IMG/VR virus record: IMGVR_UViG_3300029305_009146
From: an uncultured virus (IMG/VR IMGVR_UViG_3300029305_009146)
Lineage: Duplodnaviria > Heunggongvirae > Uroviricota > Caudoviricetes
Reading direction: 5' to 3' (one strand)
Length of the DNA: 64,000 nucleotides
Each line of letters starts with the position of its first letter. The first letter of the stretch is position 1. The notes below the pieces were generated by a model that had not been told where the DNA came from, did no database searches, and was given only the letters and a program-made list of their open reading frames with translations. This document shows positions 1,282-32,471 of the stretch, piece by piece. The translations under genes were made by a program, and so were the position numbers.

Positions 1282-1354
1282 TTAGGCCTCCTTTTTTGGA
1301 TAAAAAGAGCCCCGATACAGTAAACAGAATACCATATCCCGGCTCAAATGTCCA

Positions 1355-1573: not shown

Positions 1574-1602
1574 ACAACACCTCCTGAAGTGAAATCATAT
1601 TT

Positions 1603-1631
1603 GTTAAGGGAAAAATAACGCCTTATATAAA
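1603..1631 (-). promoter_or_regulatory. Element promoter-like motif TTTATA-N16-CCTTAAC
   Basis: Upstream of xis-int, after a terminator hairpin. Confidence 0.7.
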
Positions 1632-1664
1632 AAAAGAGGATGGAATTTTCTTCCATCCTTCTTT

Positions 1665-2225: not shown

Positions 2226-2236
2226 AGTACACCTCC

Positions 2237-2833: not shown

Positions 2834-2835
2834 AA

Positions 2836-3078
2836 CTATCTCTCCATTTCTTCATCCTTACCTATTTTTATACAACAATCAGTCCCCGGAACAATCGCCA
2901 GCGTACTCCCTGTTGCCCAGGCTACGTGTATCTGTCCGGCGTCATCTACGTACCGTACAATGCCCCTGGTCCCGGGTTCCGGTGCTTGTTTATCATCCAT
3001 ATAGATAAGTTCCAGTTCTGCACCTGCCGGGTACTTTTTTCTGATTGCATCTACTTCTGCTCTGCTCGGAAATCTCAT
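2836..3078 (-). CDS. DUF4314 family protein
   Basis: KYPAGAELELIYMDD...GTRGIVRYVDDAGQIHVAW pattern; start MRFPS overlaps the upstream stop (ATGA). Confidence 0.8.
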   Translation of the reverse strand: MRFPSRAEVDAIRKKYPAGAELELIYMDDKQAPEPGTRGIVRYVDDAGQIHVAWATGSTLAIVPGTDCCIKIGKDEEMER

Positions 3079-4052: not shown

Positions 4053-4145
4053 AAAAATCTCCCTCTTTCGAATGCAGAATTATGAATTATGAATTAAGAA
4101 TGGTGGTATCTCCATTATTCCTTATTCATTATTCATTGTATCTCT

Positions 4146-4152
4146 GTTAAGG
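4146..4152 (-). promoter_or_regulatory. Element motif core (TTTTC)CCTTAAC
   Basis: Intergenic, upstream of 3075..4052; no TTTATT box at N16. Confidence 0.6.
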
Positions 4153-4162
4153 GAAAATTTTC

Positions 4163-4423
4163 TTAGATGACTTTTTGGTAATAATAAATAAGAATAAATC
4201 CGAGTGGCCACGGGATTATGGATATGACGTGTTTTGGAAGAACATCGTCCATATTTATAAAATCAAGCAAATCGTCCAGTGTTTCAAAATCACCTCTTTT
4301 GTAATATGAATCTGTTTTGCAATCTACGTTTGCGCATATCGGGCATTGCAACAGCAGTCCCTTTTTCTTTGGTGTAACCGTCCATTCTTCGCCAACATAT
4401 TTACAAAATTTACATTCTTTCAT
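4163..4423 (-). CDS. Small Cys-rich (zinc-binding) hypothetical protein
   Basis: CKFC and CPIC pairs; start at MKECKF with GGAGG RBS. Confidence 0.6.
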   Translation of the reverse strand: MKECKFCKYVGEEWTVTPKKKGLLLQCPICANVDCKTDSYYKRGDFETLDDLLDFINMDDVLPKHVISIIPWPLGFILIYYYQKVI

Positions 4424-4494
4424 GATTTTGTCCTCCTGTAATCTTTTATTTTCTTGCAAATCACAGGTTTTCACTGCTTTTTTCTTACAATACT

Positions 4495-4523
4495 GTTAAG
4501 GAAAATAATTAGGCACTTTTAAA
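4495..4523 (-). promoter_or_regulatory. Element promoter-like motif TTTAAA-N16-CCTTAAC
   Basis: One of a divergent pair of motif copies. Confidence 0.65.
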
Positions 4524-4532
4524 ATTTCTTTC

Positions 4533-4539
4533 CCTTAAC
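4533..4539 (+). promoter_or_regulatory. Element motif core (TTTC)CCTTAAC on + strand
   Basis: Only intergenic + strand copy seen; 32 nt upstream of the only + strand gene. Confidence 0.7.
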
Positions 4540-4571
4540 ATAAAGTGTATATACTTTGAAAGGAGAATTTT

Positions 4572-5453
4572 ATGGCAGACAAATACAGTTTTATTACAAT
4601 CAAGAAAATAAATTCTATGGGTGTGCTCAGCAAGGCATATTCTCACAACTACCGGACATCGTTTGTTCCTAACGCAGACAGTTCCCTTCACATGAAAAAC
4701 GAAGAGCTGGTCAACAAGAGCCACTTAAACTATAATGAACGCTGGGAACGTCGCATGAAAGAAGCCGGAGCAAAACTTGGGCGAAAAGATGCTGTCCGGG
4801 CATATGAAATCATTACAACCTATTCCGATACCGGATTTGTGGATGTGGAGGAATGGAAAAAAGACAATGTAAAATGGATGCAGGACTACTTTGGAAAAGA
4901 CAATGTGCTATCCATGATGTTTCACGGGGACGAGTGCGGGAATGTACATATCCACTCGATTGTAATTCCTATCGATGAACGAGGGCGCCTTTGTGCAAAG
5001 TCTTTCACGGGTGGTGCGAAAAAAATGCACGAGTTACAAAATTCTTACGGCGCAGCAATGGAAAAGCATGGTTTAAAGAGAGGTCTTGAAAACAGCAGAG
5101 CAAAGCACCAGGACATTCGCCGTTTTTATGCGGCACTCAATAACGCAGTTTCTGCTAAAATCCCGGAGAGAGAACAAGGAGAGGATTTCGAGGAGTATTT
5201 TAATCGTGTAAATACTTACCTGCAGGAAAAAGAACTCAAAAATCTTGGCGAAAAACAAGCATTAAAACGTGAGGTAGATGAAGCAAAGACGCATCTCTTC
5301 ACGTTTAAAAAGAAATACAAAAAGGCCATCAAGCTTCACGACACATGGGAAGGCCTTTACGGACTGGAAAGCACTGAAATGCAGTTTGACCGGCTTCTTG
5401 CAAAAACAGAAGAAAATAAACAGACTGCAAAGGAAAAGGAACTATCCGAATAG
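4572..5453 (+). CDS. mobV: MobV/Pre family relaxase (plasmid recombination enzyme)
   Basis: HNYR motif I and HGDECGNVHIHSIVIP HUH motif; coiled-coil C-terminus. Confidence 0.9.
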   Translation: MADKYSFITIKKINSMGVLSKAYSHNYRTSFVPNADSSLHMKNEELVNKSHLNYNERWERRMKEAGAKLGRKDAVRAYEIITTYSDTGFVDVEEWKKDNVKWMQDYFGKDNVLSMMFHGDECGNVHIHSIVIPIDERGRLCAKSFTGGAKKMHELQNSYGAAMEKHGLKRGLENSRAKHQDIRRFYAALNNAVSAKIPEREQGEDFEEYFNRVNTYLQEKELKNLGEKQALKREVDEAKTHLFTFKKKYKKAIKLHDTWEGLYGLESTEMQFDRLLAKTEENKQTAKEKELSE

Positions 5454-20289: not shown

Positions 20290-20480
20290 CTCTGAAAAAC
20301 GAAGCCTGTTTGACACTCCCCATATCTAAAGAAAAGGGATTCTTGCTACCCGTTGGATATTTTCCAACTGATTAGTCCATTTCTGGTAAATCGCAGTGCA
20401 AGGCATGGGTATGTCATTACCCATCCTAAAGCAGTACCATTAGTACTTTAGGCAGATAGTCTGTTACCAACTATCTCAGT
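20290..20480 (-). ncRNA. Predicted TnpB omega/reRNA including ~20-nt guide (5' boundary approximate)
   Basis: Lies between the tnpB 3' end and the right-end TCAA, as established for TnpB systems. Confidence 0.6.
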
Positions 20481-21667
20481 TGAAGCACAGATATTTCTTG
20501 CCCCAACGATATCCCGGTGTGTATGGTATCCACAAGAACATCCATACCATCTATCCTTTGCGTGGTTCAATGAGCCACACTTTGGACATTTTTGGCTGGT
20601 ATACGAGGGATTTACATACGCCACCTGAATACCTGCCAATCGGGCTTTGTATTCGATATACATAGCGAGCCGGTAGAAGCTCCACGTATGCAGGCTTGGA
20701 TTGTTTTTACGACTTTGTCTTGTCGCTGTTCTTATGTTTGCAAGCTGTTCCAGTTTGATAGTTGAAACACCTTGTTTTATCGCTTCATTTACAACGGAAC
20801 GACTTATCTTATGGTCAATATCTTTCATGATGCGCTGTTCTTTGTTGTTGATACGTTTCACTGCAGCCATCTTTTTCTTTTGCTGTAGCTTTTTGCGGAG
20901 ATACTTATAATGGCGTCTCATATATTTGTTGTGACGGCCATTCCCATAGAATTTTACTTTACCGTCAGAAGTGAAACTAACGGCGGGGCATTTAATTCCT
21001 AAATCAATGCCCATGACTTTGTTGTCAGGCAAAAGTTCCGGCGCTGCTTCTTCAATACTTACCTGTGCTATCAATTTGCTGTTTTTAGATACAATACGAA
21101 GCGTGCCAAGTTTATGGCTTTTGATGGTATCGTATTGCTCTTCCGTACAGAAGGTTTTGATGCGGATGCGTTCTGATTTGCCGTTAATTAAAACCGGAAC
21201 AGAAAGATATATCGTATCCTCTGTAGAGAACGTATCTTTACTAATTACAAAGTTTTGGTTGTTCCAGTAACAGCACGGTTTCTTTAACACAGGAAGATGT
21301 GGTGCTGTTACTCTTACGGGAGAACCTTTGGCAATCAGTCTTTTGTTTTGCAGCACAGCTTTGTGACATTCTTTTCTATGTTTTTTTATGATGGAGCGTG
21401 CGTCTTGCGCTATCTGCGCTCTTACTGCAGAAGGTAAATTTGCACGGATATCTTTACTGCTAAATTTACGAATGTCAATGCCACGAATCGCAAGTGATAC
21501 TGTTTCGTTTACTGCGCGGATGTATTCGTCCATAGCAGAATGGATTATCTTTTCCTGCTCTCTTGTGAAGGAAAGTTTTATTGTTTCTGTCAGTTTCGTT
21601 TGTATCACCTTCCTTTCTTGTGCTTATATCCCCCATAGTTAAAAACAGGGGTTTTACGCGCATGAGA
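20310..21667 (-). mobile_element. Non-autonomous IS200/IS605 (IS1341-like) element, tnpB only
   Basis: Left-end hairpin CCCCTGTT-TTT-AACTATGGGGG following TTAT; right-end hairpin ending GGGGAGTGTCAA; no tnpA. Confidence 0.8.
20448..21608 (-). CDS. tnpB: TnpB RNA-guided endonuclease
   Basis: RuvC motifs GIDLG, IKLEQL and RDIVGARNI; zinc finger TSQKCPKCG...CSCG. Confidence 0.95.
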   Translation of the reverse strand: MIQTKLTETIKLSFTREQEKIIHSAMDEYIRAVNETVSLAIRGIDIRKFSSKDIRANLPSAVRAQIAQDARSIIKKHRKECHKAVLQNKRLIAKGSPVRVTAPHLPVLKKPCCYWNNQNFVISKDTFSTEDTIYLSVPVLINGKSERIRIKTFCTEEQYDTIKSHKLGTLRIVSKNSKLIAQVSIEEAAPELLPDNKVMGIDLGIKCPAVSFTSDGKVKFYGNGRHNKYMRRHYKYLRKKLQQKKKMAAVKRINNKEQRIMKDIDHKISRSVVNEAIKQGVSTIKLEQLANIRTATRQSRKNNPSLHTWSFYRLAMYIEYKARLAGIQVAYVNPSYTSQKCPKCGSLNHAKDRWYGCSCGYHTHRDIVGARNICASTEIVGNRLSA

Positions 21668-21766: not shown

Positions 21767-23614
21767 TCAATATTCAATCTTTGAAAGAATATTTTCCAGC
21801 TTCTTTACGCTCTCGGTAGTATCATTAGTCAGCTCGTGATTGTTGTCAGTAACCGAAGCAACGTTTGCGGTTTTTTCCGCGATATCCGCAACACCCATAA
21901 CATTTTCGTCAATAATGATGTTGATTTCGTTTACTGCACCGGAAACTTCATCAATTACAGTATTCATCTCTGAGACTTCCTTGTGAATCACTTCCATGCC
22001 GGACATGAACGTGTCTGCATCTGACATATACTGTTCGCTCAAGTTACGAAAGTTATCGTAATCGCTTAAAACAGAAGCACCTAAAAATTCTGTTGTCCCG
22101 GTCATGCACTTTGTGATATCCGAAACTGCAGCATCGGTAGCCTTAATAATTTCATTAATGCTCTTTACAGTATCCAGAGAACGAGCCGCCAGATTCCTGA
22201 TTTCTCCGGCAACGACGGCAAAGCCCTTACCGGCCTCTCCTGCTCTTGCGGCTTCGATGGAAGCGTTAAGGGAAAGGAGGTTGGTCTGGTCAGAAATCTC
22301 GATAATAGCCGCAGTCAATTCATTAATCTTCTTTACTGCTTTTAACTTTTCAAGAGATGTAGATGTATCTTCCTTGATTTGTTCGTACATTTTCTGCGTC
22401 TGAGTGATTGCATTAACGGTTACATTCTGAAGCTCCGTGGTTCTCTTTGCAATCTCCTTGGAAACCTCATTATTTTTTTCTACCGCACTTTCAATGCTCT
22501 CTGACTTTTCCTTCATCTGTGCAATACGCTCAGTCATTGCATTTGTTGTTTCTGCAACCTTGCCGGAGTTATGAGAAAGCGCCTCGGTTGTTTTGGAGTT
22601 ATTTTGGCACAGCATACGCACTTCTTCACTGGAATCTTCCAACGCTTGCATATTCTCTCTTATCTGTCCGTTTGCATTTTCTATCCGGGAAATCATCTCC
22701 CCAAGACTGGCAGTCATCTTCTGGACCGACCGACTCATGGTTCCGGTCTCGTCTTTTTTGTCACAGAGACGTTCCAAGTCGTCGGAAGCCTTTAACTTTA
22801 AATCGGCAATATCGTCAATGATTTTACCAACCTTTTGGATTGGTTTTGTGATACGGTTTGAAATATACTGACTCAGAAAGATTGACGCAGCCATCAGGCA
22901 TGCAACCGTAACACAAGAAATTAACACAAGTCTGCGAATAGGACTCATAAGTTCACTTCCGCTGGCACAAACCACCACGACAGACTTGATTCCTGTTACG
23001 TAATAGCTTGCATAATAGGTCTCACCGTCTTCTTCGAACTCCATGCAGAGATTATCTGGGACAACGCCTCTTGCGAGCTTTCCCAAAAGGTCAGAAAGTA
23101 CGCTGTTTCTCACCGGTTTTTTGATTTTTGATGCGTCGGTATGGTATTCAATAATACCACTACCGTTGGTTACGTAGTAATAATACGAATTAACTCCCTC
23201 CAGAGAAAAATCCTTCAAAATCTCTCCGTATTCTTCGGCGGAGAGCTGTATCGGTTTTGAGTTGATTTTGTTCTGTGGTTGCGCAGCCTGCTCTTTTACA
23301 TCCACCAGCTTACCGTAAGATGTAACAGTATTAAGCATCTTTCCGTAGGCGGAATCAATTACAAGGTCTTTCATACTGTTCATCAGCACAAGAAGAATTA
23401 CTGTAGCAGCAAGAACAATCCCCGAGACGGATGTCATGATAATCTTGGCTTTGATGGATTTAAGCTCGATTTTCGACAAAGGCTTTGTAACCTTCTTTAA
23501 TGCCGGCAGAATCTTTTTCCCGGCTTTAGATGAGACTTTTTTAGTTTTTCCTATAACCTTTTTAAGCGCAGAACCGGATTTCTTCGGACCTGCGTTTTTC
23601 TTTTCCTTTTTCAT
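21767..23614 (-). CDS. Methyl-accepting chemotaxis protein
   Basis: Two TM helices, Cache-like sensor, [31 protein letters not shown] signalling hairpin. Confidence 0.95.
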
Positions 23615-23655
23615 ATATTCTCCTTTCTTACCTTTTTCTCTTGAGAAAAACGGAG

Positions 23656-23726
23656 AGCTGGTAGAGGGAATTGAACCCCCGTAGGCAGATTACAAATCTG
23701 CTGCCAAGCCACTTGGCGATACCAGC
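23656..23726 (-). tRNA. tRNA-Thr(TGT)
   Basis: Cloverleaf; anticodon arm GCAGA-TTTGTAA-TCTGC; no encoded CCA. Confidence 0.85.
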
Positions 23727-23852
23727 AGTCCGGAGCACGCTCCGGTGTTCGGAGTCATTGCTCCAATTTTGAGGTCTAAGCCCCAGATAAAAAACCGATA
23801 ATGACTATGTCAAAATCGGGGGCTGTATCCAAACATGTTGGTACAGTCACAA

Positions 23853-23939
23853 CGCCTGGAGAGGGATTCGAACCCCCGTGCCATTTAAGGCTGTACGGTT
23901 TTCAAGACCGCCCCGTTACGACCACTTCGGTATCCAAGC
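23853..23939 (-). tRNA. tRNA-Ser(TGA)
   Basis: GCGGT-CTTGAAA-ACCGT, long variable arm, G discriminator. Confidence 0.9.
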
Positions 23940-23965
23940 AATAAAATATTGTTGTTTGTTTTTAG

Positions 23966-24103
23966 CGGCACAGGTAGGGCCCTGCTCTCCAGTGGAGAGC
24001 GTCTAGGGCGGACCGAGTCGGGAGACGAGACTTCGAACCCACGGTCCCTTTCGGAATCACTGGTTTTCAAGACCAGCCCCTTAAGCCTCTCGGGCACTGT
24101 GCC
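23966..24103 (-). tRNA. tRNA-Ser(TGA) with 52-nt insertion in the T-loop
   Basis: Acceptor GGCACAG/CTGTGCC, T-stem GTGGG/CCTAC, loop TTCGAA[23980-24031]C. Confidence 0.8.
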
Positions 24104-24118
24104 AAAATTAAACGAAAG

Positions 24119-24358
24119 CTATTTTTCATTTTCCTTCTCTTTCTTTGTCCACTCAATCAACCCATGAATGTTCATAAGTGAATAAACAGCATACATTACC
24201 ACATTTGCCAAATTAAACGTTGTAAGAAAATTGACAAGAATCCACGTAAGGTTGCTGGCTATCCATACAGGAAAAGCAGCTTTCTTCTTTTTATTAATCA
24301 AAACCTGTCCACCCAAACTCAAAACCGTTGCCAACCACGACAAAATAATACCTAGCAT
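24119..24358 (-). CDS. Short PnuC-like membrane protein
   Basis: Three hydrophobic segments, FPVWIASN and NIHGLIEW resemble a PnuC half; embedded in the tRNA array. Confidence 0.6.
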   Translation of the reverse strand: MLGIILSWLATVLSLGGQVLINKKKKAAFPVWIASNLTWILVNFLTTFNLANVVMYAVYSLMNIHGLIEWTKKEKENEK

Positions 24359-24580
24359 TGTACTTTCTCCTTGTTTGTTATTCTCTTTAATCACGAAAAA
24401 AAATCCCTCTTATAAAACCAACTGCCATTTAGGCCCGCTCTTATCTCGTCAGATAGGCGCAACTTCCAAGGGATTCGAAACCAAGAGAAGTGGAATGTGG
24501 TGTCCCCTCTGCGTTTGGTATCGAAGTTTTTTCAGAATTTGTAAGCCACACATCTTACAACTCCTTATAGATGGAAAAAA

Positions 24581-24651
24581 TGGACCGTGTAGGGTTCGAA
24601 CCTACGCACCGGTTATGACCCGACCACTCTAACCAACTGAGCTAACGGTCC
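24581..24651 (-). tRNA. tRNA(CAT), Ile2/Met type, slightly degenerate
   Basis: GTCGG-GTCATAA-CCGGT; very short variable region. Confidence 0.75.
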
Positions 24652-24723
24652 ACAGACTGCTATACAGCAGCTATATAGCAGTCATGACACATATTTGGTT
24701 TTTGCCGTCCACGACAACGGCAA

Positions 24724-24795
24724 CTGGGCTGGCAGGATTCGAACCTGCGAATGCAGGGGCCAAGACCCTGTGCCTTACCTCTTGGCGACAGCCCA
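24724..24795 (-). tRNA. tRNA-Gln(TTG) with C at position 33
   Basis: Gln-type body TGGGCTG...CAGCCCA-G; loop TC-TTG-GC. Confidence 0.8.
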
Positions 24796-24802
24796 ATGTT
24801 AA

Positions 24803-24934
24803 ATACTTACGGTGTGCGGCCGGAATGGCTTCCAGCTCCGGAGCAAGGCTATCCTCGTGTGTTGTTTGATATACGTCTATATCTCATCCACACGGTTCCT
24901 ACACGTCCTACGGACTACCGTACACCGTAAATAC
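24803..24934 (-). ncRNA. Candidate structured ncRNA (~132 nt)
   Basis: 16 of 17 pairs in the closing helix, which encloses three hairpins. Confidence 0.55.
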
Positions 24935-25120
24935 TTAAAAATATATACATGCAATGCTCTTTTTCGCCCGGTGAAACCACCGATTTGCAGATTTAATGTT
25001 ACTCCTTCAGGAAGGCTACCATGGATTATTTCCTATAAGGGTGCAGGCATCACATAGAAACTTTTACATATGGCCTTATGCAAAGATGTTCCCCTAGCCT
25101 GCTTAAACTAATTTCCCTAG

Positions 25121-25193
25121 TCGAGGTAGCCGGACTCGAACCGACGACGTCGTGAACCCAAATCACGCGCCCTACCATCTGGGCCATACCTCG
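25121..25193 (-). tRNA. tRNA-Pro(TGG)
   Basis: CGTGA-TTTGGGT-TCACG, canonical cloverleaf. Confidence 0.9.
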
Positions 25194-25204
25194 AAAAGCT
25201 ATTT

Positions 25205-25519
25205 GCCGTCACACAGGTTGCAACCCTAGACTGCTTTCCCTCTGGGAAGGTCTTTCGTTCAATAAGCTATCCGTTCAAAGCGGATGTCTCTGCTTATCAC
25301 GCAGTCCAAACCTTTGAGAGTGTATCTCCTCTATTGTTTTAAATGGTTTTTCGACCCCTGTACACGAATGCACGAACGAGCGAAGGTTACGCCTTTTCCC
25401 GTCAGGGCCATGTCCAAAACTCTCCTACGCAGTCACTATCGCTCTTTAACCTCGGCCTTGCTTCTCAAGACTAATATCCTCTGTCTTGACACCCCATCGG
25501 AAAGGGTTCGCCTTACGGC
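25205..25519 (-). ncRNA. Candidate large structured ncRNA (~315 nt)
   Basis: End-to-end pairing GCCGT/ACGGC and AACCCT/AGGGTT, many internal stems, no credible ORF. Confidence 0.6.
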
Positions 25520-25522
25520 TAG

Positions 25523-25679
25523 TAGCCTCTGCCGGACTCGAACCGGCGTAGCCTTTGTCTTTTTCCCGGGTTATTACACAAAAGCTGTTGCGTATTCCTG
25601 ACAAATTATTCCGCAACCATCCCTATTCTTACTGGTTTGTAAAAACTAGGAGTGCTTGTACCAACTAAGCTAAGAGGCT
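25523..25679 (-). ncRNA. tRNA-like RNA with three hairpins (~105 nt) replacing the anticodon and variable arms
   Basis: Perfect acceptor AGCCTCT/AGAGGCT, D arm GCTT/AAGC, T arm GCCGG-TTCGAGT-CCGGC. Confidence 0.75.
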
Positions 25680-25685
25680 ATATAA

Positions 25686-25758
25686 TCGAAGCGACCGGAT
25701 TTGAACCGACGACCTCTGCACCCCCAGTGCAGCGCTCCACCAACTGAGCCACGCTTCG
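25686..25758 (-). tRNA. tRNA-Pro(GGG)
   Basis: CTGCA-CTGGGGG-TGCAG, canonical cloverleaf. Confidence 0.9.
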
Positions 25759-25855
25759 ATGTTCCCAGAGAACAAAGAAGCTCTCCGGGAGTAACAAAAT
25801 ATTTTAGGAGGTATCCCATGCTCTGAGATACTGTGGGGGCACAACTCCCCACGAA

Positions 25856-25948
25856 TACGACAAGCGGGATTCGAACCCGCCATACAACCGGTTGCTCATG
25901 CCGCACAGAATGTCTAGTCCTGTCCATTACCACACCTGGAATTGTCGT
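25856..25948 (-). tRNA. Atypical class II tRNA, anticodon AGA (Ser-like)
   Basis: Acceptor ACGACAA/TTGTCGT, CAGGA-CTAGACA-TTCTG, long variable arm, perfect T arm. Confidence 0.6.
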
Positions 25949-25994
25949 ACCAGTTTTTTGAGCCGATGTAATTGAGCGTGCTTATCTAGCACAG

Positions 25995-26071
25995 TCCCCT
26001 ATACAGGATTTGAACCTGTGACCTCTCGGCTTTTGCAGACCAAGCGCTCTTCCTGGCTGAGCTAATGAGGG
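25995..26071 (-). tRNA. Atypical tRNA with enlarged anticodon arm (loop CTGCAAAA)
   Basis: Normal D and T arms; CTTGGT/GCCGAG stem with 8-nt loop; one acceptor mismatch. Confidence 0.6.
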
Positions 26072-26152
26072 ATGAACGCTCCCGTCACACCCGGGCGGGG
26101 GCGTTATGTTGGTAAGTAGTTTACAAGGAGGACTTCTGGCAAAGAAGCCCAG

Positions 26153-26211
26153 TGAGGTACTCGGGAATTGAACCCGGGTGTTTTTGCTTCCCTTTTTGAA
26201 GCATATACCCC
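26153..26211 (-). ncRNA. 59-nt tRNA-like RNA lacking the anticodon arm
   Basis: Acceptor GGGGTAT/GTACCTC, GCTTC/GAAGC arm, 8-nt linker, CGGG-TTCAATT-CCCG. Confidence 0.65.
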
Positions 26212-26240
26212 AGAAAGGAACCAACGCAACCATCTTTCAC

Positions 26241-27796
26241 CGAAACCTATGCTACGGAAGCCCCTCGCTTTAGCCATGGGGAGGAAGTAGCACAAGCCCT
26301 TTCTGTATAATATTTATATCCATCTGATTTCTGCACAAGAGTAATATACTTATGGTTTATGCCCTGTACACGCTCTTTGCCTGTCTTAACATCGAAAGAG
26401 CCGCTCTTTCTGCATGCAACGGTCCCGTAGTATACACCTACCTTCTTTCCGGACGTGACGACGGCTTTTACCATATCTCCCGTCTGAAACCCGAAGAACT
26501 GCTTCTGTCTCGCGAAATAGCCTCTCGGAAATCCTGATGCATTTACGTTGGTTCTCTGATGGATTCCCCTGCCGACAGCCTTGATAAACTGGACGGTATC
26601 CGTTTTGAAAACCAAGATGTCCGGAGTGGAGGCTCCAACGCAAACCGCATCGTAGTAGTGTTCTTTCGGCAAGCCCAACCGGATGCGATTAAGTTTTGTT
26701 CTGCCGCCAGTCCCGCATTCTATCGGAATACCAAAGGATTTCAATATCTGCAATACAGCCCACCGGGTTGCGGTTACCATTGCAGCATCTTTCAGTGGTT
26801 TCCTTGTGAGTGCCTGTACCTGTGGGTGCCCAAATTCTTCGGCTGTCATGTTGTCTTTCTTCTGATTGCAGTCATGGCAGGCTATTGCGAGATTACTGAT
26901 TCGGTTAGAACCTCCCCGGGACTTCGGAATGATGTGCTCGATTTCAAGCTTTGCATTCTCCGTTCCGCAATACGCACACTTCCGATTAAACTTCTCAAGA
27001 AGGTACTCTCTTACCTCGTATCCCGCTAACTCTCCCTGCTGATATTCAATCCCGCAGATATCCGGATTTTGAAGTAATTGGGTATCAAACTTAACGTTCT
27101 CGTAGGATATATATCCGAGTGGAACAATCTTTGACAACCTCCTTACAAAGGCGTGGATGTTATTTATCCGGCTCATCAAAGATGGAGGCAACCAGCCCTC
27201 TGGTCTCCTCCGGTTTAGAAACCGGGGTTTACGGTAACGCAGATTTGAGGAACGTCTGCGCCGGCGGTATCCCCTTCTGGCATCAAGATTACTCTTGATG
27301 TCAGTTCTGTGCTCCATCTGACCAAGCCAGCACATCTCATTACCCTTCAGAATAGCAAGACCAGTGTGCCTGCTGCCGTAGTCAATCTTTATGCGGTAAG
27401 ACTTTTCCGGAGACTGTTCCGCTCCCTTCTTTAAGATGATGGTGAACGGAGCTTTCCGGAAGATTGCCGCCTTACCATCTTTTAAAAGCCTTCTTGCTTT
27501 TGCCGGATGACACATGTCCAACGGCTGTTTATTTGCATCCAGTACAAATACCATGGAATCTTATTCCTTTCTCGCCTTACGGCGGTAAATATCCTCTCGC
27601 CAATGTTAATTAAGCTTTTCATGCTATACACACTACCCATTACCCCATGACGGATTGTTTAATGTATAACGACAGAGCGACGGACTGAGGAGGCATCCGA
27701 AGGTGTCATGACTTAATTAACGTAGCACATCATGTGCTTAAGCTGGTCAATATGAGGCTTTTACAAGCCCCTACCTTTAGGTATGGGGTTATTGAC
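26241..27796 (-). mobile_element. IscB-type IS200/IS605 element (non-autonomous)
   Basis: Begins GTCAATAACCCCATACCTAAAGGTAGGGGCTT; ends with the related hairpin CCCCATGGCTAAAGCGAGGGGCTT; 3' boundary uncertain by a few nt. Confidence 0.8.
26247..27554 (-). CDS. iscB: IscB RNA-guided endonuclease (RuvC + HNH)
   Basis: VFVLD..KQPLDMCHPAKAR N-terminus, IDYGS RuvC-I, Arg-rich bridge helix, CAYC...EHIIPKSRGGSN HNH, HYYDA RuvC-III. Confidence 0.95.
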   Translation of the reverse strand: MVFVLDANKQPLDMCHPAKARRLLKDGKAAIFRKAPFTIILKKGAEQSPEKSYRIKIDYGSRHTGLAILKGNEMCWLGQMEHRTDIKSNLDARRGYRRRRRSSNLRYRKPRFLNRRRPEGWLPPSLMSRINNIHAFVRRLSKIVPLGYISYENVKFDTQLLQNPDICGIEYQQGELAGYEVREYLLEKFNRKCAYCGTENAKLEIEHIIPKSRGGSNRISNLAIACHDCNQKKDNMTAEEFGHPQVQALTRKPLKDAAMVTATRWAVLQILKSFGIPIECGTGGRTKLNRIRLGLPKEHYYDAVCVGASTPDILVFKTDTVQFIKAVGRGIHQRTNVNASGFPRGYFARQKQFFGFQTGDMVKAVVTSGKKVGVYYGTVACRKSGSFDVKTGKERVQGINHKYITLVQKSDGYKYYTERACATSSPWLKRGASVA

Positions 27797-27812
27797 TTCT
27801 ACGCCGGGATTT
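27560..27812 (-). ncRNA. IscB omegaRNA (HEARO-like) including 5' guide
   Basis: GTCAA...TTGACCAGCTTAAG...CTACGTT...ACATTGGCGAGAGG scaffold upstream of iscB. Confidence 0.8.
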
Positions 27813-27913
27813 GCCGAAAGTCGGCAACGTTGTGCGTCTAAACAGAAGATGTGGTTTTTACCAACGTACAACGCCATGCTTAAGCTTACTTTTGCATCTT
27901 TGTCGGATGCGAA

Positions 27914-27981
27914 TACTCCACAGCGGAATCGAACCGCCATCTTCCCGTTAAACGAGTGCTCTGCCATTGAGCTAATGGAAT
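27914..27981 (-). tRNA. tRNA-like gene with shortened anticodon arm (3-nt loop TTA)
   Basis: Normal acceptor, D and T arms; CTCGT-TTA-ACGGG is 13 nt instead of 17. Confidence 0.65.
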
Positions 27982-28040
27982 ACTTAATCACACAGAAAGG
28001 AGGCGAAACTAAGAAATTGCCGGGTAATCACTCCGGCGAG

Positions 28041-28114
28041 TGTGCCATATAGGACTTGAACCTATGACCAACCGGTTATGAGCCGGCCGCTCTCACCAAC
28101 TGAGCTAAAGGCAC
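28041..28114 (-). tRNA. tRNA(CAT), Ile2/Met type
   Basis: GCCGG-CTCATAA-CCGGT cloverleaf. Confidence 0.88.
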
Positions 28115-28206
28115 AAAGTTTATCCTTTCTTAGAGGAGTTTCCCCGGCCCGCTGTAATCTCGGCGGGCCAAGGAGTGGAGGTATAACAATGAAAAGAAAA
28201 GCTGCG

Positions 28207-28279
28207 TGGGCCACGCGGGAATCGAACCCGCGACACCCGGATTAAAAGTCCGGTGCTCTGCCGCCTGAGCTAGTGGTCC
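28207..28279 (-). tRNA. tRNA-Lys(TTT)
   Basis: CCGGA-CTTTTAA-TCCGG cloverleaf. Confidence 0.92.
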
Positions 28280-28368
28280 TTGTACGCGTCGCCATCGGCT
28301 CATCCTTGTCCGGCTCGGCAGCGGCGCGCGTGCTCGAAATAATTTGCTCTGTAATTTCTTACGTTATT

Positions 28369-28397
28369 GTTAAGGGAAAAAATTTGCAGAAAATAAA
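28369..28397 (-). promoter_or_regulatory. Element promoter-like motif TTTATT-N16-CCTTAAC
   Basis: Exact match heading the tRNA array. Confidence 0.75.
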
Positions 28398-28415
28398 AGT
28401 TTTTGATGTTTTTTT

Positions 28416-28940
28416 CTACAGCTTAAAGAAAAGGTTGCAGAGCTCCTGCATAAACTCGTCTCCTACCGGGGACCTGTGTTCAGCATTCGGAGCATTCACT
28501 TCTCTCGGCATATAGTCAAAAATTGTTGCCGAAACTGCTCCCGGACGCTTACCGGATGTATACTGGAGCGGCGTTGTCTTGGCGTGTTCGCTACCATATA
28601 TTTTCTTAGCAAGGCTGATTAATTCCTCTTCCGGCTTATCAATCGTGCGTACGCCATAACGCTTAAACGCCTTCTTACTATCCAGATGATATCTTGGTCC
28701 AAATGTCTTTTCTACCACTCCCATAGCGTAATCGTACTTCATATCTTCCGGGGCAAAACAAAGCACAAGATGCTCTGTATGCGTTGCCGCTTCTTCTACA
28801 GAAACCACTACCAGGTTCTTCTTCACAATCTCGTTGAGCTTCTGTTCCTTCTCGGAAAGAACCGCCTTCATTTTCTCTTCTTCGATAAAGCGGATTGCCT
28901 CATCGTAATCTAACTCTCTTCCGTTTACATTAATCTTCAT
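28416..28940 (-). CDS. Hypothetical protein
   Basis: 174-aa ORF with RBS. Confidence 0.7.
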   Translation of the reverse strand: MKINVNGRELDYDEAIRFIEEEKMKAVLSEKEQKLNEIVKKNLVVVSVEEAATHTEHLVLCFAPEDMKYDYAMGVVEKTFGPRYHLDSKKAFKRYGVRTIDKPEEELISLAKKIYGSEHAKTTPLQYTSGKRPGAVSATIFDYMPREVNAPNAEHRSPVGDEFMQELCNLFFKL

Positions 28941-29238
28941 CCGTCTTCTCCTTTTTTGTTGTCATTTTTGAAAAGTCTTTCATGAGGTTAGGGGGTATCG
29001 GGAGAACCGTTACCAGCGTCTCTCCGCAAAATATATACGCTTTCCCGCCGTAGAGCCGGATTTCGTTTGCGCTTTTGTTCCGCCCCCATAAGGAAGTAAC
29101 CCATTTGTTGAGCCGTCCCTTGGTTTCACAGTGCCGAATGCCCTCATGGAATACTTTTTGCACAATCCGGTCTTTAGACTTTTTATTGAGTCCGCAGCGT
29201 TCTTTCATGCGGTTTTTTGCGTGTTCGGTTACTTTCAT
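28930..29238 (-). CDS. Small basic protein, DUF4258/RelE-like fold candidate
   Basis: VTEHAKNRMKER...YIF...LVTV pattern. Confidence 0.5.
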   Translation of the reverse strand: MKVTEHAKNRMKERCGLNKKSKDRIVQKVFHEGIRHCETKGRLNKWVTSLWGRNKSANEIRLYGGKAYIFCGETLVTVLPIPPNLMKDFSKMTTKKEKTDED

Positions 29239-30056: not shown

Positions 30057-30599
30057 TCACTCCGTTTTCTGCAAATACTTCGCTGGTACTTCATTTGTGA
30101 GCCAAACACCGTTTGCAGAGAGGTAGAACTTATATCCATCCTTTGCCATCTGACCGGTATTTACCCGATAGAGTACTAACTTGCCATGCCTCTCCCCTAC
30201 CATAACGGCCGTTTCTAAATCCTTGCTCAGATGAACATGAAGTCTGCTCTTTGGGATAAGACCGTTCTTTTCAATGGAAGCGACATATTTCTCTGCAGTT
30301 CCATGCCAGAGATAATCCGGCGGAGTTGCTTCCGGAAACTCCAAGTCTACCGGAATGGAATGTCCCTGATTCGCCCGGATGCAGGTCATGTCTTCATTGA
30401 ATGCATAGCGCTGCTTCTCATCCGTAGCGACAATCTCCTTTAATAAATCCATATCAAAGGATTCAAACTCCGGATTCTTTTTAATTCCGGCAATCAATTC
30501 CTTTGTATTTGCCCAGCCATGCCTATCTAAGGCAATGCCGATAACCTCCGGCTTATGGCGCAAAATAAGGGCAATGAATTTACTTACATGGGTTTTCAT
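30057..30599 (-). CDS. kptA: RNA 2'-phosphotransferase (Tpt1/KptA)
   Basis: ILRH, LDRHGW, KQRY, IRANQGHS, LWHGT and HVHLS motifs. Confidence 0.95.
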   Translation of the reverse strand: MKTHVSKFIALILRHKPEVIGIALDRHGWANTKELIAGIKKNPEFESFDMDLLKEIVATDEKQRYAFNEDMTCIRANQGHSIPVDLEFPEATPPDYLWHGTAEKYVASIEKNGLIPKSRLHVHLSKDLETAVMVGERHGKLVLYRVNTGQMAKDGYKFYLSANGVWLTNEVPAKYLQKTE

Positions 30600-31239
30600 A
30601 AAAAGATTTCTCCTCTCTTTCTTCCTGTAGACGCTCTTGATACATCTCATACAGCGTCGGAGAAGTTTGTTTTAATAGCTCTTCCAGCTTTTCAAAATCA
30701 TCACACCATTCGCAGACATTAAACGGAGCCTGATGTCCGTCGTCATAATCAGCGAAAAATCTTGCTGCTGGAGAGTGAGGACATCCTCCGGTGTAGTTAA
30801 AATTAATTCCATCCCAATCATCCCATGCTATATCAAAACATGCTGCTCCATAACCACTTTTTCTGATTGTTTTTTCGAAGTCATGGATTTTACCGCAAAC
30901 ATCACTGAAAGTGTCTTCTCTAAATCCACGATAAGACTGTTCGGCAAGCAACAAGACTAATACTTTAAACCGCTCTTGTTCATCTTCAGATACAGGTCTC
31001 TTCTTGATAAGCTCTTGCATTTTTTTCTGCACAACCTGAGCATGTTCTGCACGATATTCGTCAATTGTTTTCTCTGGCTTTAAGACAGTCATAGTGTCGT
31101 GGGTAGTATCGAGAAACTTAACATTCCACATGCCAAGCCTGTTAACAAGAGCTCTTGCTGTGAATTTTAACTTATCCTCAGCAACAAAATCAAGTTCTTT
31201 TTCCAGTACCGATAAAAATACTTCTTCAGCAGTTTTCAT
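30580..31239 (-). CDS. Hypothetical protein, paralog of 31265..31966 (C-terminal domain)
   Basis: ADYDD...VCEW...PTLYEMYQERL. Confidence 0.7.
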   Translation of the reverse strand: MKTAEEVFLSVLEKELDFVAEDKLKFTARALVNRLGMWNVKFLDTTHDTMTVLKPEKTIDEYRAEHAQVVQKKMQELIKKRPVSEDEQERFKVLVLLLAEQSYRGFREDTFSDVCGKIHDFEKTIRKSGYGAACFDIAWDDWDGINFNYTGGCPHSPAARFFADYDDGHQAPFNVCEWCDDFEKLEELLKQTSPTLYEMYQERLQEEREEKSFYENPCK

Positions 31240-31979: not shown

Positions 31980-32471
31980 TTATCTGTTCAAAATCTCTAT
32001 TGCCCTATCCTTAAGTTCCTCTGTGAGACCGTGCTTATATGTAGTATGGATGAAGAGGTCTGTGTCGGTATACTCCCGCATATCCGAATCGTCGTCAAGG
32101 ATGATGAAGTTATCGACCGGATTCTTTGAGAGCCATTCTCTGATTTCATCACCACGTTGGATGTCTCCACTCAATGACGGCGTGATGTCATAAATCTCCA
32201 AACCATAGTCACGGAGTCTCTTTTCAAGTCTTTTGTATAACTTATCACCAAAAATACTTTCCCGACCGCTTCTCTCACAGCCGATACGCCAAGAAGACGA
32301 TACTACAATCTTTGCGCCGGTCCTATCGATAATCTCTTTGAGTAACTTCAAAGGACGGTCTTCCACCTCTGCATACATAATACATCCGGTGATTCCATTT
32401 TTCTCACGAAACACCATTAAATCGTCTTCAGAATTCAAAACTCCATCAACGTCTAAGAAAACAACTTTCAT
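31980..32471 (-). CDS. HAD phosphatase, Swiss Army Knife RNA-repair-like (HAD_SAK_2)
   Basis: FLDVDGVLN, IVVSSSWR, RGDEIREWL, IILDDD. Confidence 0.85.
   Translation of the reverse strand: MKVVFLDVDGVLNSEDDLMVFREKNGITGCIMYAEVEDRPLKLLKEIIDRTGAKIVVSSSWRIGCERSGRESIFGDKLYKRLEKRLRDYGLEIYDITPSLSGDIQRGDEIREWLSKNPVDNFIILDDDSDMREYTDTDLFIHTTYKHGLTEELKDRAIEILNR

What the first reader, a model, noticed from the sequence alone, without database searches (positions are those of the whole stretch)
25523..25679. 157-nt tRNA-like RNA with three extra hairpins in place of the anticodon and variable arms
Seen: flawless acceptor, D and T arms enclose ~105 nt forming TCCTA-TTTTTAC/GTAAGAA-TAGGG, GTTGCG/CGCAAC and AGCTTTTGT/ACAAAGGCT hairpins; there is no 7-nt anticodon loop. 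Inference: a natural tRNA scaffold carrying a cargo RNA, or an intron-containing tRNA whose boundaries I cannot resolve. There is no tag ORF, so it is not tmRNA.
Basis: partly seen in the sequence, partly recalled or inferred. Interest (0 to 1): 0.75.

Follow-up and report, generated by a model that had tools for sequence, protein, structure and literature searches.

The report
Orphan tRNA-shaped RNA without an anticodon loop
Inside a cluster of tRNA genes on a phage-like mobile element from a gut bacterium lies a gene for a 157-base RNA that keeps the whole tRNA body but carries three extra hairpins where the codon-reading loop should be, so it probably does something other than decoding, though no relative or expression data could be found.

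Summary
On the minus strand, 25679..25523 folds into a five-way junction: 7-bp acceptor stem, canonical D and T arms, discriminator A, and three hairpins. All 43 pairs are standard. The fold beats shuffles (z -3.7, 0 of 200), and the tRNA frame is rare by chance.

It starts 6 nt after tRNA-Pro(GGG), inside a same-strand tRNA array that also holds odd tRNAs and an IscB/HEARO insertion. Tpt1 and HAD_SAK_2 RNA-repair genes lie upstream.

Rfam's tRNA model and default ARAGORN do not call it. No deletion model gives a unique anticodon. No homologue turned up in any collection searched, and no RNA run was listed, so function is inferred from one sequence.

Phage tRNA arrays elsewhere hold many insert-bearing tRNAs, which Rfam's tRNA model does recognise; the candidate fits none of these families. 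The closest known analogue is phage T4 RNAC, a tRNA-cluster RNA with a T arm, extra hairpins and no known role.

Best reading (about 0.42): a non-decoding tRNA-shaped RNA that uses the tRNA body for processing and stability. Rivals: a doubly interrupted pre-tRNA, or a decayed gene.

The parts
25673..25679 (-). acceptor stem, 5' strand (AGCCUCU)
   Evidence: pairs 7 of 7 with 25524-25530
25654..25670 (-). D arm (GCUU / AGUUGGUAC / AAGC), preceded by U8 A9 at 25671-25672
   Evidence: sequence read directly; 4-bp stem, loop has A14, G15 and G18G19
25620..25651 (-). hairpin 1: 12-13 bp rod with a 6-nt loop (AAACCA), at the position of the anticodon arm
   Evidence: MFE and centroid fold; two alternative registers in the lower 4-5 bp
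25587..25617 (-). hairpin 2: 6-bp stem with a 19-nt loop
   Evidence: MFE and centroid fold; sequence
25550..25586 (-). hairpin 3: 9-bp stem with a 19-nt loop containing CCCGGG
   Evidence: MFE and centroid fold; sequence
25531..25547 (-). T arm (GCCGG / UUCGAGU / CCGGC), preceded by AC at 25548-25549
   Evidence: 94% identical over 18 nt to the T arm of tRNA-Pro(UGG) at 25129-25146
25523..25530 (-). acceptor stem 3' strand (AGAGGCU) and discriminator A; no encoded CCA (next bases are CUA)
25686..25758 (-). tRNA-Pro(GGG), immediately upstream with a 6-nt spacer
   Evidence: ARAGORN; Rfam tRNA 61 bits
23655..28279 (-). the surrounding same-strand tRNA array (10 ARAGORN calls, 10 Rfam tRNA matches, several non-canonical members)
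26247..27796 (-). IscB-type HNH nuclease ORF (26247-27554) with its HEARO RNA (27585-27796), inserted within the array
   Evidence: Rfam HEARO 160.5 bits; phrog_2214 at 2e-119
30057..30650 (-). RNA 2'-phosphotransferase (Tpt1/KptA), 1.8 kb upstream of the array
   Evidence: PF01885 at 4.4e-45; phrog_5470 at 7e-75
31980..32471 (-). HAD_SAK_2 protein (HAD domain of 'Swiss Army Knife' RNA-repair proteins)
   Evidence: PF18143 at 2e-27

Best explanation
This is a real gene for a tRNA-shaped RNA that does not decode. It sits in the tRNA array of a phage-like mobile element of an uncultured Lachnospiraceae-type gut bacterium.

Shown:
- The sequence keeps every part of the tRNA body that makes the L-shape and the ends: 7-bp acceptor stem, A73, U8, a D loop with A14/G15/G18G19, a T loop UUCGAGU with the G53-C61 pair, and a C just before the T stem that can pair with G15.
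- It lies 6 nt behind tRNA-Pro(GGG) on the same strand.

Inferred:
- It is co-transcribed with the array.
- It is cut out by RNase P at the 5' end and by the tRNA 3'-end machinery, and it receives CCA, since none is encoded.
- The tRNA body therefore gives it processing and stability.

The two places that can be enlarged without breaking the L-shape are enlarged. The anticodon stem is prolonged into a closed 12-13-bp rod. The variable-loop position carries two hairpins, each showing a 19-nt A-rich loop. These hairpins would be the working part, as binding sites for a protein or another RNA.

The neighbours are spare tRNAs, Tpt1 and HAD_SAK_2. The likeliest arena is therefore the phage-host conflict over tRNA cleavage and repair. 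On this view the RNA is a counterpart of phage T4 RNAC.
For: Structure:
- Well-defined five-way junction, z -3.74, 0 of 200 shuffles as good.
- All 43 pairs are standard.
- The inner 106 nt have z -3.2, 0 of 300 shuffles as good.
- The hairpins fill the insert exactly, leaving only 2-nt linkers.
- The frame is rare by chance: 3 hits in 100 shuffled windows.

Placement:
- Same strand as the array and 6 nt after a good tRNA.
- The 329 nt that follow are not unusually structured (z -0.8), so the unit stands alone.

Not a decoder as it stands:
- No Rfam tRNA match at E<=10 and no default ARAGORN call.
- Of 1,426 single-deletion variants, 558 are called tRNA, spread over 20 or more anticodon labels.
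- Of 4,874 double-deletion variants, 4,407 are called tRNA, with the top score of 115.1 shared by UUA and GUA readings among others. No anticodon is specified.

Precedent:
- T4 rnaC (139 nt) lies 6 nt behind rnaD, which follows tRNA-Arg.
- It folds with a canonical T arm, an imperfect closing stem and two internal hairpins, z -4.57.
- Rfam matches nothing there.
- Passages in PMC3014915 and PMC9697503 say RNAC and RNAD come from the tRNA region and that their roles are unknown; PMC9697503 also classes them as late RNAs validated by Northern blot.

Enlarged variable regions can be selected: a 7-member phage tRNA family with a roughly 69-nt variable arm shows compensatory changes in 6 of 37 pairs.

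Context: Tpt1 and HAD_SAK_2 lie upstream. Passages of PMC7824862 describe phage tRNAs together with RNA-repair genes as a counter to host attacks on tRNA.
Against: - It is a single sequence. No homologue was found, so there is no covariation test for any of the three hairpins.
- There is no expression evidence.
- No promoter-like site was found on the minus strand upstream of the array, and the promoter and terminator counts are at or below the shuffle means.
- The array also holds decayed tRNA pieces and IS-type elements, so decay is going on nearby.
- The window holds no recognisable partner protein: no Ro/TROVE, RNA ligase, RtcB or splicing endonuclease among the roughly 85 ORFs scanned against Pfam.
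- T4 RNAC is not a sequence or structure homologue. Model R1 gives only 11.6 bits, and only over part of it.
- RNAC's own function is unknown, so the analogy explains little.
Confidence: 0.42

Rival explanations
1. It is a precursor of a decoding tRNA with two intervening sequences. One caps the anticodon stem, so that removing 10-14 nt would leave a 7-nt loop. The other is the 68-nt pair of hairpins in the variable loop, leaving AUG+AC as a 5-nt variable loop. The inserts would be removed by cleavage and ligation, with Tpt1 clearing a 2'-phosphate at the junction.
For: - Insert-bearing tRNAs are common in phage tRNA arrays.
- 18 of 26 motif-bearing ones resolve to a clean tRNA after one deletion at anticodon-stem position 26/27 to 29/30.
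- A second scan gave 120 stretches, 39 of 121 matches with at least 6 of 7 acceptor pairs, 37 of them unique.
- Double-deletion variants of the candidate reach ARAGORN scores of 111-115, inside the range of the array's own tRNAs, 102-121.
- Tpt1 lies 1.8 kb upstream.
- 4 of the 7 Tpt1-anchored viral loci that carry arrays of 5 or more tRNAs also hold expanded tRNAs: L141, L150, L151 and L162.
Against: - Rfam's tRNA model scores the true insert-bearing tRNAs at 40-58 bits but gives nothing for the candidate at E<=10.
- No unique anticodon emerges.
- Two nucleotides, not one, separate the D stem from hairpin 1.
- Hairpin 1 has no bulge-helix-bulge shape.
- The insert model R2 does not match it.
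- No ligase or endonuclease was recognised in the window.
- Tpt1 is absent from 5 of 5 phage records that carry the commonest insert type.
Confidence: 0.2
2. It is a dead tRNA gene. A former array member picked up insertions and lost its anticodon arm, and it now has no function. Its neat stems are what recent insertions of palindromic DNA happen to look like.
For: - The array holds other decayed pieces: a partial tRNA-Ser copy at 24023-24098 (22.6 bits, below Rfam's cut-off) and lone T-arm remnants at 24469-24482 and 26160-26179.
- IscB/HEARO sits inside the array and TnpB lies nearby.
- No homologue was found anywhere searched and no RNA run was listed.
- The T arm is 94% identical to that of the neighbouring tRNA-Pro(UGG), as expected of a local duplicate.
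Against: - All 43 pairs are intact.
- The extra material sits only at the two positions that tolerate enlargement, and it forms three separate, complete hairpins with 2-nt linkers.
- The insert has no second copy in the window; the best non-self matches inside it are 12 nt.
- There are no terminal inverted repeats.
- Contigs from 3 independent runs that cover it are letter-identical. That says little either way.
Confidence: 0.28
3. It is a chance look-alike, or a member of a known tRNA-like family such as tmRNA or YrlA.
For: None specific. The scanner gives 0.03 frames per shuffled 64-kb window, which is not negligible over a very large scan.
Against: - Its position 6 nt behind a tRNA inside an array, the consensus D and T loops and the z-scores argue against chance.
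- No Rfam match to tmRNA, YrlA or any of the 4,227 families falls at the locus at E<=10.
- There is no G3-U70 and no tag frame.
- No TROVE/Ro gene was found among the ORFs scanned.
Confidence: 0.05

Closest known systems
Bacteriophage T4 RNAC (species 1 RNA, rnaC) and RNAD, stable RNAs encoded in the T4 tRNA cluster
   Same: - Encoded on the tRNA strand a few nucleotides behind a tRNA gene.
- RNAC is 139 nt, has a canonical T arm close to its 3' end, a closing stem between its two ends and internal hairpins in place of an anticodon arm, and folds well (z -4.57).
- It is not matched by Rfam's tRNA model or any other family.
- Its role is unknown (passages of PMC3014915 and PMC9697503).
   Different: - No detectable homology: R1 gives 11.6 bits over part of rnaC.
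- RNAC's closing stem is imperfect and it shows no clear D arm. The candidate has a flawless acceptor stem and D arm and three hairpins rather than two.
- RNAC comes from a coliphage; the candidate comes from an element of a Lachnospiraceae-type host.
Insert-bearing tRNA genes of phage tRNA arrays (found here in IMG/VR contigs)
   Same: - A tRNA body of 95-150 nt with a perfect acceptor, located in tRNA arrays.
- The structured inserts show covariation.
   Different: - Those keep a normal anticodon arm once one insert is set aside, and they score 40-58 bits with Rfam's tRNA model. The candidate does neither.
- Its inserts lack the hairpin plus AC(A/U)GC(A/G)A signature.
Class II tRNAs (long variable arm) and the phage family with a roughly 69-nt variable arm (L423 group)
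   Same: Extra helical material at the variable-loop position, which points away from the tRNA core. The L423 family's arm is about the same size as the candidate's 68-nt insert and is kept by compensatory changes.
   Different: Those have a 5-bp anticodon stem with a 7-nt loop, and one branched arm. The candidate has two separate hairpins and no anticodon loop.
YrlA / bacterial Y RNA (tRNA-like module joined to a Ro-binding stem)
   Same: A tRNA-like D/T body with a long helix where the anticodon stem would be. It is linked in the literature to RNA-repair settings (passage of PMC7824862; the YrlA architecture itself is recalled, not tested).
   Different: - In YrlA the RNA ends lie in the long stem and the acceptor-like stem is closed (recalled). 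Here it is the reverse.
- No Rfam YrlA match at the locus.
- No Ro/TROVE gene among the ORFs scanned.
tmRNA
   Same: A tRNA-like acceptor and T arm enclosing a long insert.
   Different: - A D stem is present.
- No G3-U70, no tag reading frame, no pseudoknots predicted.
- No Rfam or ARAGORN tmRNA call at the locus.
Engineered 'tRNA scaffold' for expressing recombinant RNAs (recalled from the literature, not looked up here)
   Same: The anticodon stem is prolonged by foreign RNA, while the tRNA body secures processing and stability.
   Different: That is a laboratory design. Whether this natural RNA works that way is inference.

Membership tests
tRNA (Rfam RF00005) | 7-bp acceptor stem with discriminator, D arm, and T arm with a T-loop consensus | tested here: met
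   All present and fully paired.
tRNA (Rfam RF00005) | 5-bp anticodon stem with a 7-nt loop (U33, purine 37) | tested here: not met
   There is no such arm in the sequence. A closed 12-13-bp hairpin with a 6-nt loop stands in its place.
tRNA (Rfam RF00005) | covariance-model score at or above the gathering cut-off (29 bits) | tested here: not met
   No match overlaps 25523-25679 even at E<=10. Default ARAGORN does not call it.
Intron-bearing tRNA (group I intron type) | a group I catalytic core inside the anticodon loop | tested here: not met
   No Rfam intron family matches at E<=10. The inserts are about 14-22 and 68 nt. That this is far below group I size is recalled knowledge.
Intron-bearing tRNA (bulge-helix-bulge type) | two 3-nt bulges separated by a 4-bp helix at the splice sites | tested here: not met
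   The predicted fold shows only a 1-nt bulge or a 1x1 mismatch in hairpin 1, and no bulges in hairpins 2 and 3. No dedicated BHB search was run.
Phage tRNA inserts with hairpin + AC(A/U)GC(A/G)A (family defined here, model R2) | a covarying hairpin followed by the invariant heptamer, inserted at anticodon-stem position 26/27 to 29/30 | tested here: not met
   The motif is absent from the candidate. The only match in 23000-29000 lies inside the IscB ORF. R2 run with filters off gives no match at the locus at E<=10.
tmRNA | G3-U70 in the acceptor stem, a tag reading frame, and a Rfam or ARAGORN call | tested here: not met
   Position 3:70 is C-G. No tmRNA call falls at the locus.
YrlA / Y RNA | a Rfam RF02553 match and a neighbouring Ro (TROVE) gene | tested here: not met
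   The only weak RF02553 match in the array (19.5 bits) lies at 24600-24776. No TROVE domain was found in the ORFs scanned.
T4 RNAC-type RNA from a tRNA cluster | encoded in a phage tRNA cluster directly behind a tRNA; a T arm plus closing stem enclosing extra hairpins; no anticodon arm | tested here: met
   Architecture and placement were compared. This is a likeness of kind, not homology.
T4 RNAC-type RNA from a tRNA cluster | sequence or structure homology to T4 rnaC | tested here: not met
   R1 gives 11.6 bits (E 0.011) over L404:2910-3001 only.
T4 RNAC-type RNA from a tRNA cluster | accumulates as a stable processed RNA | not testable with these tools
   No RNA run was listed for the stretch.

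The most novel reading that the evidence does not exclude
Together with T4 RNAC, this RNA represents a general and overlooked class: tRNA-shaped effector RNAs embedded in phage tRNA arrays. On this reading it is a natural tRNA scaffold. The host's own RNase P, 3'-end and CCA enzymes make it, and it may even be charged by a synthetase that ignores the anticodon. It displays two 19-nt loops that capture or distract a host tRNA-targeting defence factor, or that recruit the element's own repair enzymes (Tpt1, HAD_SAK_2).
Probability: 0.25. Interest if true: 0.8.

Novelty: new variant of a known kind. Interest (0 to 1): 0.55.

Why it matters
Phage and mobile-element tRNA arrays are now read as counter-measures to bacterial defences that cut tRNAs. 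If array members exist that keep the tRNA body but cannot decode, the arrays encode more than spare tRNAs.

T4 RNAC and RNAD were still described as of unknown function in 2010 and 2022 (passages). They would gain relatives in unrelated phages that could be compared and tested.

The RNA would also be a natural example of the 'tRNA scaffold' idea used in RNA engineering.

Standard tRNA finders and Rfam miss such genes. The same holds in part for the many insert-bearing phage tRNAs noticed here, so they are probably under-annotated.

Tried and rejected
**Homologue searches, all empty for the candidate**
- blastn ('distant') of 401 nt against 50,697 phage records: 8 records matched, all only over the neighbouring tRNA-Pro part, query positions 49-107.
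- blastn of the 157 nt against 72,556 plasmids: no match.
- D-loop/T-loop pattern with a 90-120 nt gap in viral contigs: 0.
- The exact 22-mer of T arm plus acceptor: 0 in genome contigs and 0 in metagenome contigs.
- The exact 19-mer of the D arm in viral contigs: 0.

**Covariance model R1, built from the single sequence and its structure**
- Only itself and ordinary tRNAs in the window and 16 ruvB loci.
- 0 of 5 nearest genomes.
- 2 of 151 Lachnospiraceae-family genomes, at 19.6 and 17.9 bits. Both are unconvincing on inspection and at the level expected by chance.
- 0 of 151 relatives. The tool warns that an empty answer shows nothing.
- Only ordinary tRNAs or tandem tRNA pairs in 80 Tpt1-anchored viral loci and in 80 metagenome loci.

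**Other searches**
- The looser metagenome pattern gave 120 stretches. 13 had at least 6 of 7 acceptor pairs, and most of those were two adjacent tRNAs. Only L284 and L296 are single long tRNA-like units, and neither resembles the candidate.
- Single-protein locus searches in viral contigs with the 615-aa MCP and with Tpt1 found no relatives.

**Expression and variation**
- No RNA holder was listed among 22 runs, of which 20 hold part of the stretch across 16 studies, all DNA.
- Laying 4 runs gave identical contigs, no variants over the candidate and no joints.

**Other lines that led nowhere**
- No whole genome is held for the window. Earlier-findings look-ups were empty.
- The Tpt1-as-splicing-enzyme idea: Tpt1 is absent from 5 of 5 phage records with the commonest insert type.
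- The shared UUUGUCAG between hairpin-2's loop and the L150 tRNA-Lys insert was considered and dropped as probably chance; I did not formally test its significance.
- Annotation of the unknown ORFs between the array and 34.3 kb gave nothing usable: Pfam at E<=5, NCBIfam at E<=1, PHROGs, and two protein-atlas look-ups.
- ORFs overlapping the candidate or the spacers have no Pfam family.
- Literature searches for small non-group-I inserts in phage tRNA genes found no description. This covers the held library only.
Full report
**1. What is there**

Read on the minus strand, window 25679..25523 is a 157-nt unit. Its predicted fold is a five-way junction.
- The minimum-energy and centroid structures are identical at -52.5 kcal/mol.
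- 200 dinucleotide shuffles average -37.95 (sd 3.89), giving z -3.74, and none folds as well.

Checked letter by letter, the parts are:
- acceptor AGCCUCU with AGAGGCU, and discriminator A;
- U8 and A9;
- D arm GCUU / AGUUGGUAC / AAGC;
- two linker bases;
- hairpin 1: 12-13 bp with the 6-nt loop AAACCA;
- two linker bases;
- hairpin 2: 6 bp with a 19-nt loop;
- hairpin 3, directly abutting: 9 bp with a 19-nt loop;
- two linker bases (AC);
- T arm GCCGG / UUCGAGU / CCGGC.

All 43 pairs are standard: 21 G-C, 18 A-U, 4 G-U. The nucleotides that build the tRNA elbow and core can be read directly from the sequence: U8, A14, G15, G18G19, the T-loop U54 U55 C56 A58, G53-C61, and a C before the T stem that could pair with G15. 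That they have these roles is textbook tRNA knowledge. No CCA is encoded. The same is true of the neighbouring tRNAs I read.

The only nuance is that the lower part of hairpin 1 has two possible registers.

**2. Is it more than chance?**

I wrote a scanner that asks for four things: a T arm (5-bp stem, loop TTCRANN), a perfect 7-bp acceptor, a D arm with GG in its loop, and a total length of 100-320 nt.
- It finds this locus once in the real window.
- It finds 3 hits in 100 dinucleotide shuffles of the whole 64 kb, both strands.
- The inner 106 nt on their own fold at -27.5 against -18.4 +/- 2.8 (z -3.2, 0 of 300).

Placement adds to this. The unit begins 6 nt after the discriminator of tRNA-Pro(GGG) (25686-25758, Rfam 61 bits), on the same strand, inside an array. 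The 329 nt that follow it are not unusually structured (z -0.8), so the unit is self-contained.

**3. Surroundings**

The minus-strand array spans 23655-28279.
- ARAGORN tRNAs and Rfam matches 10.
- Several members are odd: a tRNA with an 8-nt anticodon loop (25994-26071), a Ser(AGA)-labelled gene with an 8-bp acceptor stem that only ARAGORN calls (25855-25949), and a gene with a UUA anticodon (27914-27981; Rfam 43 bits; relaxed ARAGORN labels it 'Stop').
- A decayed Ser(UGA) copy and lone T-arm remnants are also present.
- An IscB-type nuclease with its HEARO RNA sits inside the array.
- A truncated PnuC-like ORF does too.

Upstream lie Tpt1/KptA RNA 2'-phosphotransferase (PF01885, 4.4e-45) and a HAD_SAK_2 protein (PF18143, 2e-27), among ORFs with no recognisable family.

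The wider window looks like a phage-like mobile element in a Lachnospiraceae-type genome.
- Mobile-element or phage genes: integrase, Tn916-type excisionase, Mob relaxase, a RecJ-like PHROG, TnpB, dUTPase, YopX, and many small unknown ORFs on one strand.
- Host-like genes: an MCP, RuvB and Tpt1 that are 54-75% identical to Lachnospiraceae MAG proteins.
- The nearest ruvB loci in 9 related genomes carry no tRNAs.

**4. What it is not**

- Rfam's tRNA model gives no match at the locus even at E<=10, and default ARAGORN does not call it.
- With relaxed thresholds and introns allowed, ARAGORN labels it tRNA-Lys(UUU) with a 64-nt intron, but the drawn anticodon stem is poor.
- No other Rfam family matches (tmRNA, YrlA, ribozymes, introns).
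- Position 3:70 is C-G, and no tag frame is called.

**5. Could it be an interrupted tRNA?**

I tested this in three ways.

(a) Deletion models.
- Of 1,426 single-deletion variants, ARAGORN 'tRNA', spread over 20 or more anticodon labels.
- Of 4,874 double-deletion variants (one cut in hairpin 1, one removing hairpins 2 and 3), it.
- The top score of 115.1 is shared by many variants with UUA or GUA, and Lys, Leu, Ser and Pro readings follow within 4 points.
- The array's own tRNAs score 102.0-121.3.

So a spliced tRNA is geometrically possible, with AUG+AC forming a normal 5-nt variable loop. But nothing in the sequence specifies an anticodon, which is what one expects from trimming any long hairpin.

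(b) Comparison with real cases. My scanner and two pattern scans of viral contigs uncovered many insert-bearing tRNAs in phage arrays.
81 of 121 have a perfect acceptor stem and 8 more have 6 of 7 pairs. That gives 85 unique sequences of 95-126 nt.
- 26 of these share a hairpin followed by AC(A/U)GC(A/G)A.
- For 18 of the 26, removing one 40-52-nt insert at anticodon-stem position 26/27 to 29/30 restores a perfect 5-bp stem and a 7-nt loop with U33 and R37, across many anticodons. 8 were not resolved by my simple rule.
- The insert's hairpin covaries: 7 of 7 pairs have compensatory changes.
- Rfam's tRNA model scores such genes at 40-58 bits.

The candidate has no such motif. A covariance model of the insert (R2), run with filters off, does not match it.

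(c) The enzyme link.
- Four of the seven Tpt1-anchored viral loci that carry arrays of 5 or more tRNAs also hold expanded tRNAs.
- But Tpt1 is absent from 5 of 5 phage records with the commonest insert, two of them at least 94% complete.
- No ligase or endonuclease is recognisable in the window.

The interrupted-tRNA reading is therefore possible but is the weaker of the two functional readings.

**6. A known analogue**

Phage T4 encodes rnaD (119 nt) one base behind tRNA-Arg, and rnaC (139 nt) six bases behind rnaD.
- rnaC folds with a canonical T arm near its 3' end, an imperfect stem between its ends and two internal hairpins (z -4.57). rnaD is not unusually structured (z -0.83).
- Rfam matches neither.
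- Passages I read in PMC3014915 and PMC9697503 say both come from the tRNA region and that their roles are unknown. PMC9697503 also classes them as late RNAs validated by Northern blot.
- That RNase P takes part in their maturation is my recollection and was not verified.

The candidate is not homologous to rnaC (11.6 bits, partial). It is the same kind of thing: a tRNA-cluster RNA that keeps the processing end of a tRNA and replaces the decoding end.

**7. Mechanism proposed**

Shown: the structure, the intact tRNA body, and the placement in the array.

Inferred:
- co-transcription with the array;
- release by RNase P and the tRNA 3'-end enzymes;
- CCA addition;
- stability through the tRNA fold;
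- function through the three hairpins.

Two points favour selection over accident. First, the enlargements sit exactly where a tRNA tolerates them: as a prolongation of the anticodon stem and at the variable-loop position. A 7-member phage tRNA family with a 69-nt variable arm kept by compensatory changes (6 of 37 pairs) shows that such arms can be under selection. Second, the hairpins use up the insert completely and have no mismatches.

The two 19-nt loops share an AAUAA...GGAA layout. I did not test that similarity statistically.

The neighbouring Tpt1 and HAD_SAK_2 genes and the spare tRNAs point to the conflict over tRNA cleavage and repair, as described for jumbo phages in passages of PMC7824862. 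What the hairpins bind is unknown.

**8. What weakens all of this**

- No homologue was found in the phage, plasmid, viral-contig, metagenome-contig or representative-genome collections, or in 307 related genomes searched with the model. Some of these negatives are weak by the tools' own warnings.
- Contigs from three runs that cover the locus are identical to the window, so there is no variation to read.
- No RNA run was listed. That says nothing about expression either way.
- The array contains decayed pieces and IS-type elements, so a recently dead gene cannot be excluded.

**9. Verdict**

The feature is real and well formed. It is an orphan at present.

| Reading | Weight |
|---|---|
| Non-decoding tRNA-shaped RNA of the T4 RNAC kind | about 0.42 |
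| Decayed gene | about 0.28 |
| Doubly interrupted pre-tRNA | about 0.20 |
| Chance or a known family | about 0.05 |

I rate it a new variant of a known kind, with interest 0.55. It is surprising enough to test, and it is tied to the unexplained function of T4 RNAC/RNAD. But it rests on one sequence.

Noticed in passing
L164, L165, L177, L184-L186, L191, L195, L197, L214, L217, L220, L234, L240, L249, L263, L269, L272 (viral contigs); also L162:4850-4971, L434, L452: A widespread family of 40-52-nt inserts in phage tRNA genes of many anticodons. Each is a covarying hairpin followed by an invariant AC(A/U)GC(A/G)A and a U-rich tail, and sits in the 5' strand of the anticodon stem (position 26/27 to 29/30). 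Some arrays, such as L184, have several such tRNAs in a row. My literature searches found no description. Tpt1 is absent from 5 of 5 such phage records. Whether and how the inserts are removed is unknown.
   Followed up: partly
L430 (two copies), L456, L408, L421, L449, L208, L231, L255 (viral contigs): A second insert type at the same anticodon-stem position. It is about 55 nt long and ends in (G)UUACUU just before the resumed stem. I saw this by eye in the printout and did not analyse it further.
   Followed up: no
L141:13383-13533 and L150:14536-14686 (= L151); L414, L454, L498: tRNA-like units nested inside the anticodon loop of an outer tRNA(CAU). The inner unit has its own 7-bp acceptor, D and T arms and an encoded ACCA. 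In L414, L454 and L498 the inner element looks like a circularly permuted tRNA, with a T arm before a D arm (judged by eye only).
   Followed up: partly
L423, L424, L459, L468, L502, L504, L521 (viral contigs): A 136-137-nt tRNA family with a normal-length anticodon arm, whose loop has A rather than U at the second position, and a roughly 69-nt variable arm kept by compensatory changes (6 of 37 pairs).
   Followed up: partly
window 27914-27981 (-): A tRNA gene with anticodon UUA, which would read the UAA stop codon, and a weak 3-bp anticodon stem. Rfam tRNA gives 43 bits. ARAGORN calls it only with relaxed thresholds, as tRNA-Stop.
   Followed up: no
window 25994-26071 (-) and 25855-25949 (-): A tRNA with an 8-nt anticodon loop (gcaa; Rfam 44.8 bits), and a 95-nt Ser(AGA)-labelled gene with an 8-bp acceptor stem and a long variable arm that only ARAGORN calls.
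   Followed up: no
window 24023-24098 (-), 24469-24482, 26160-26179: A decayed second copy of tRNA-Ser(UGA), 71% identical over 52 nt to the copy at 23867-23918 and with its 3' acceptor strand displaced. Two lone T-arm remnants are also present.
   Followed up: no
window 26247-27796 (-) and 20448-21608 (-): An IscB-type HNH nuclease with a full-length HEARO RNA (160.5 bits) is inserted in the middle of the tRNA array. A TnpB (OrfB_IS605/Cas12f-like) gene lies just downstream of the array.
   Followed up: no
window 24119-24394 (-): A 91-aa ORF inside the array that matches only the C-terminal third of the PnuC nicotinamide-mononucleotide transporter (PF04973, 1e-08). It lies near the NAD-dependent Tpt1.
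   Followed up: no
L224:387-509 (-): A 119-nt tRNA-like unit in a viral contig with G3-U70 in its acceptor stem. It matches the two ends of Rfam's tmRNA model (26 bits) but is far shorter than a tmRNA.
   Followed up: no
L150:15972-16027 and L150:17233-17321: A weak HDV-F-prausnitzii ribozyme match (27.9 bits, below the cut-off) lies directly behind a tRNA-Gln, and a weak RAGATH-27 match (47.9 bits, below the cut-off) lies in the same phage tRNA array. The first recalls the tRNA-adjacent theta ribozymes of gut phages (PMC10879173; search listing and start of abstract only).
   Followed up: no
L284:1491-1636 (-) and L296:416-560 (-), from metagenome contigs (approximate plus-strand coordinates): Two further long tRNA-like units of 146 and 145 nt. 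L284 lies in an array of 6 tRNAs and has a large variable-region insert. L296 has no evident anticodon arm and no tRNA neighbours.
   Followed up: no
window 148-5453: A Tn916-type integrase and excisionase plus a Mob_Pre relaxase module at the left end of the window, possibly a separate small mobilisable element.
   Followed up: no
window 24799-24938 (-): The 323-nt spacer between tRNA-Pro(UGG) and tRNA-Gln holds a 21-nt inverted repeat (86% complementary, arms 98 nt apart) and folds somewhat better than shuffles (z -2.5, 1 of 100).
   Followed up: no
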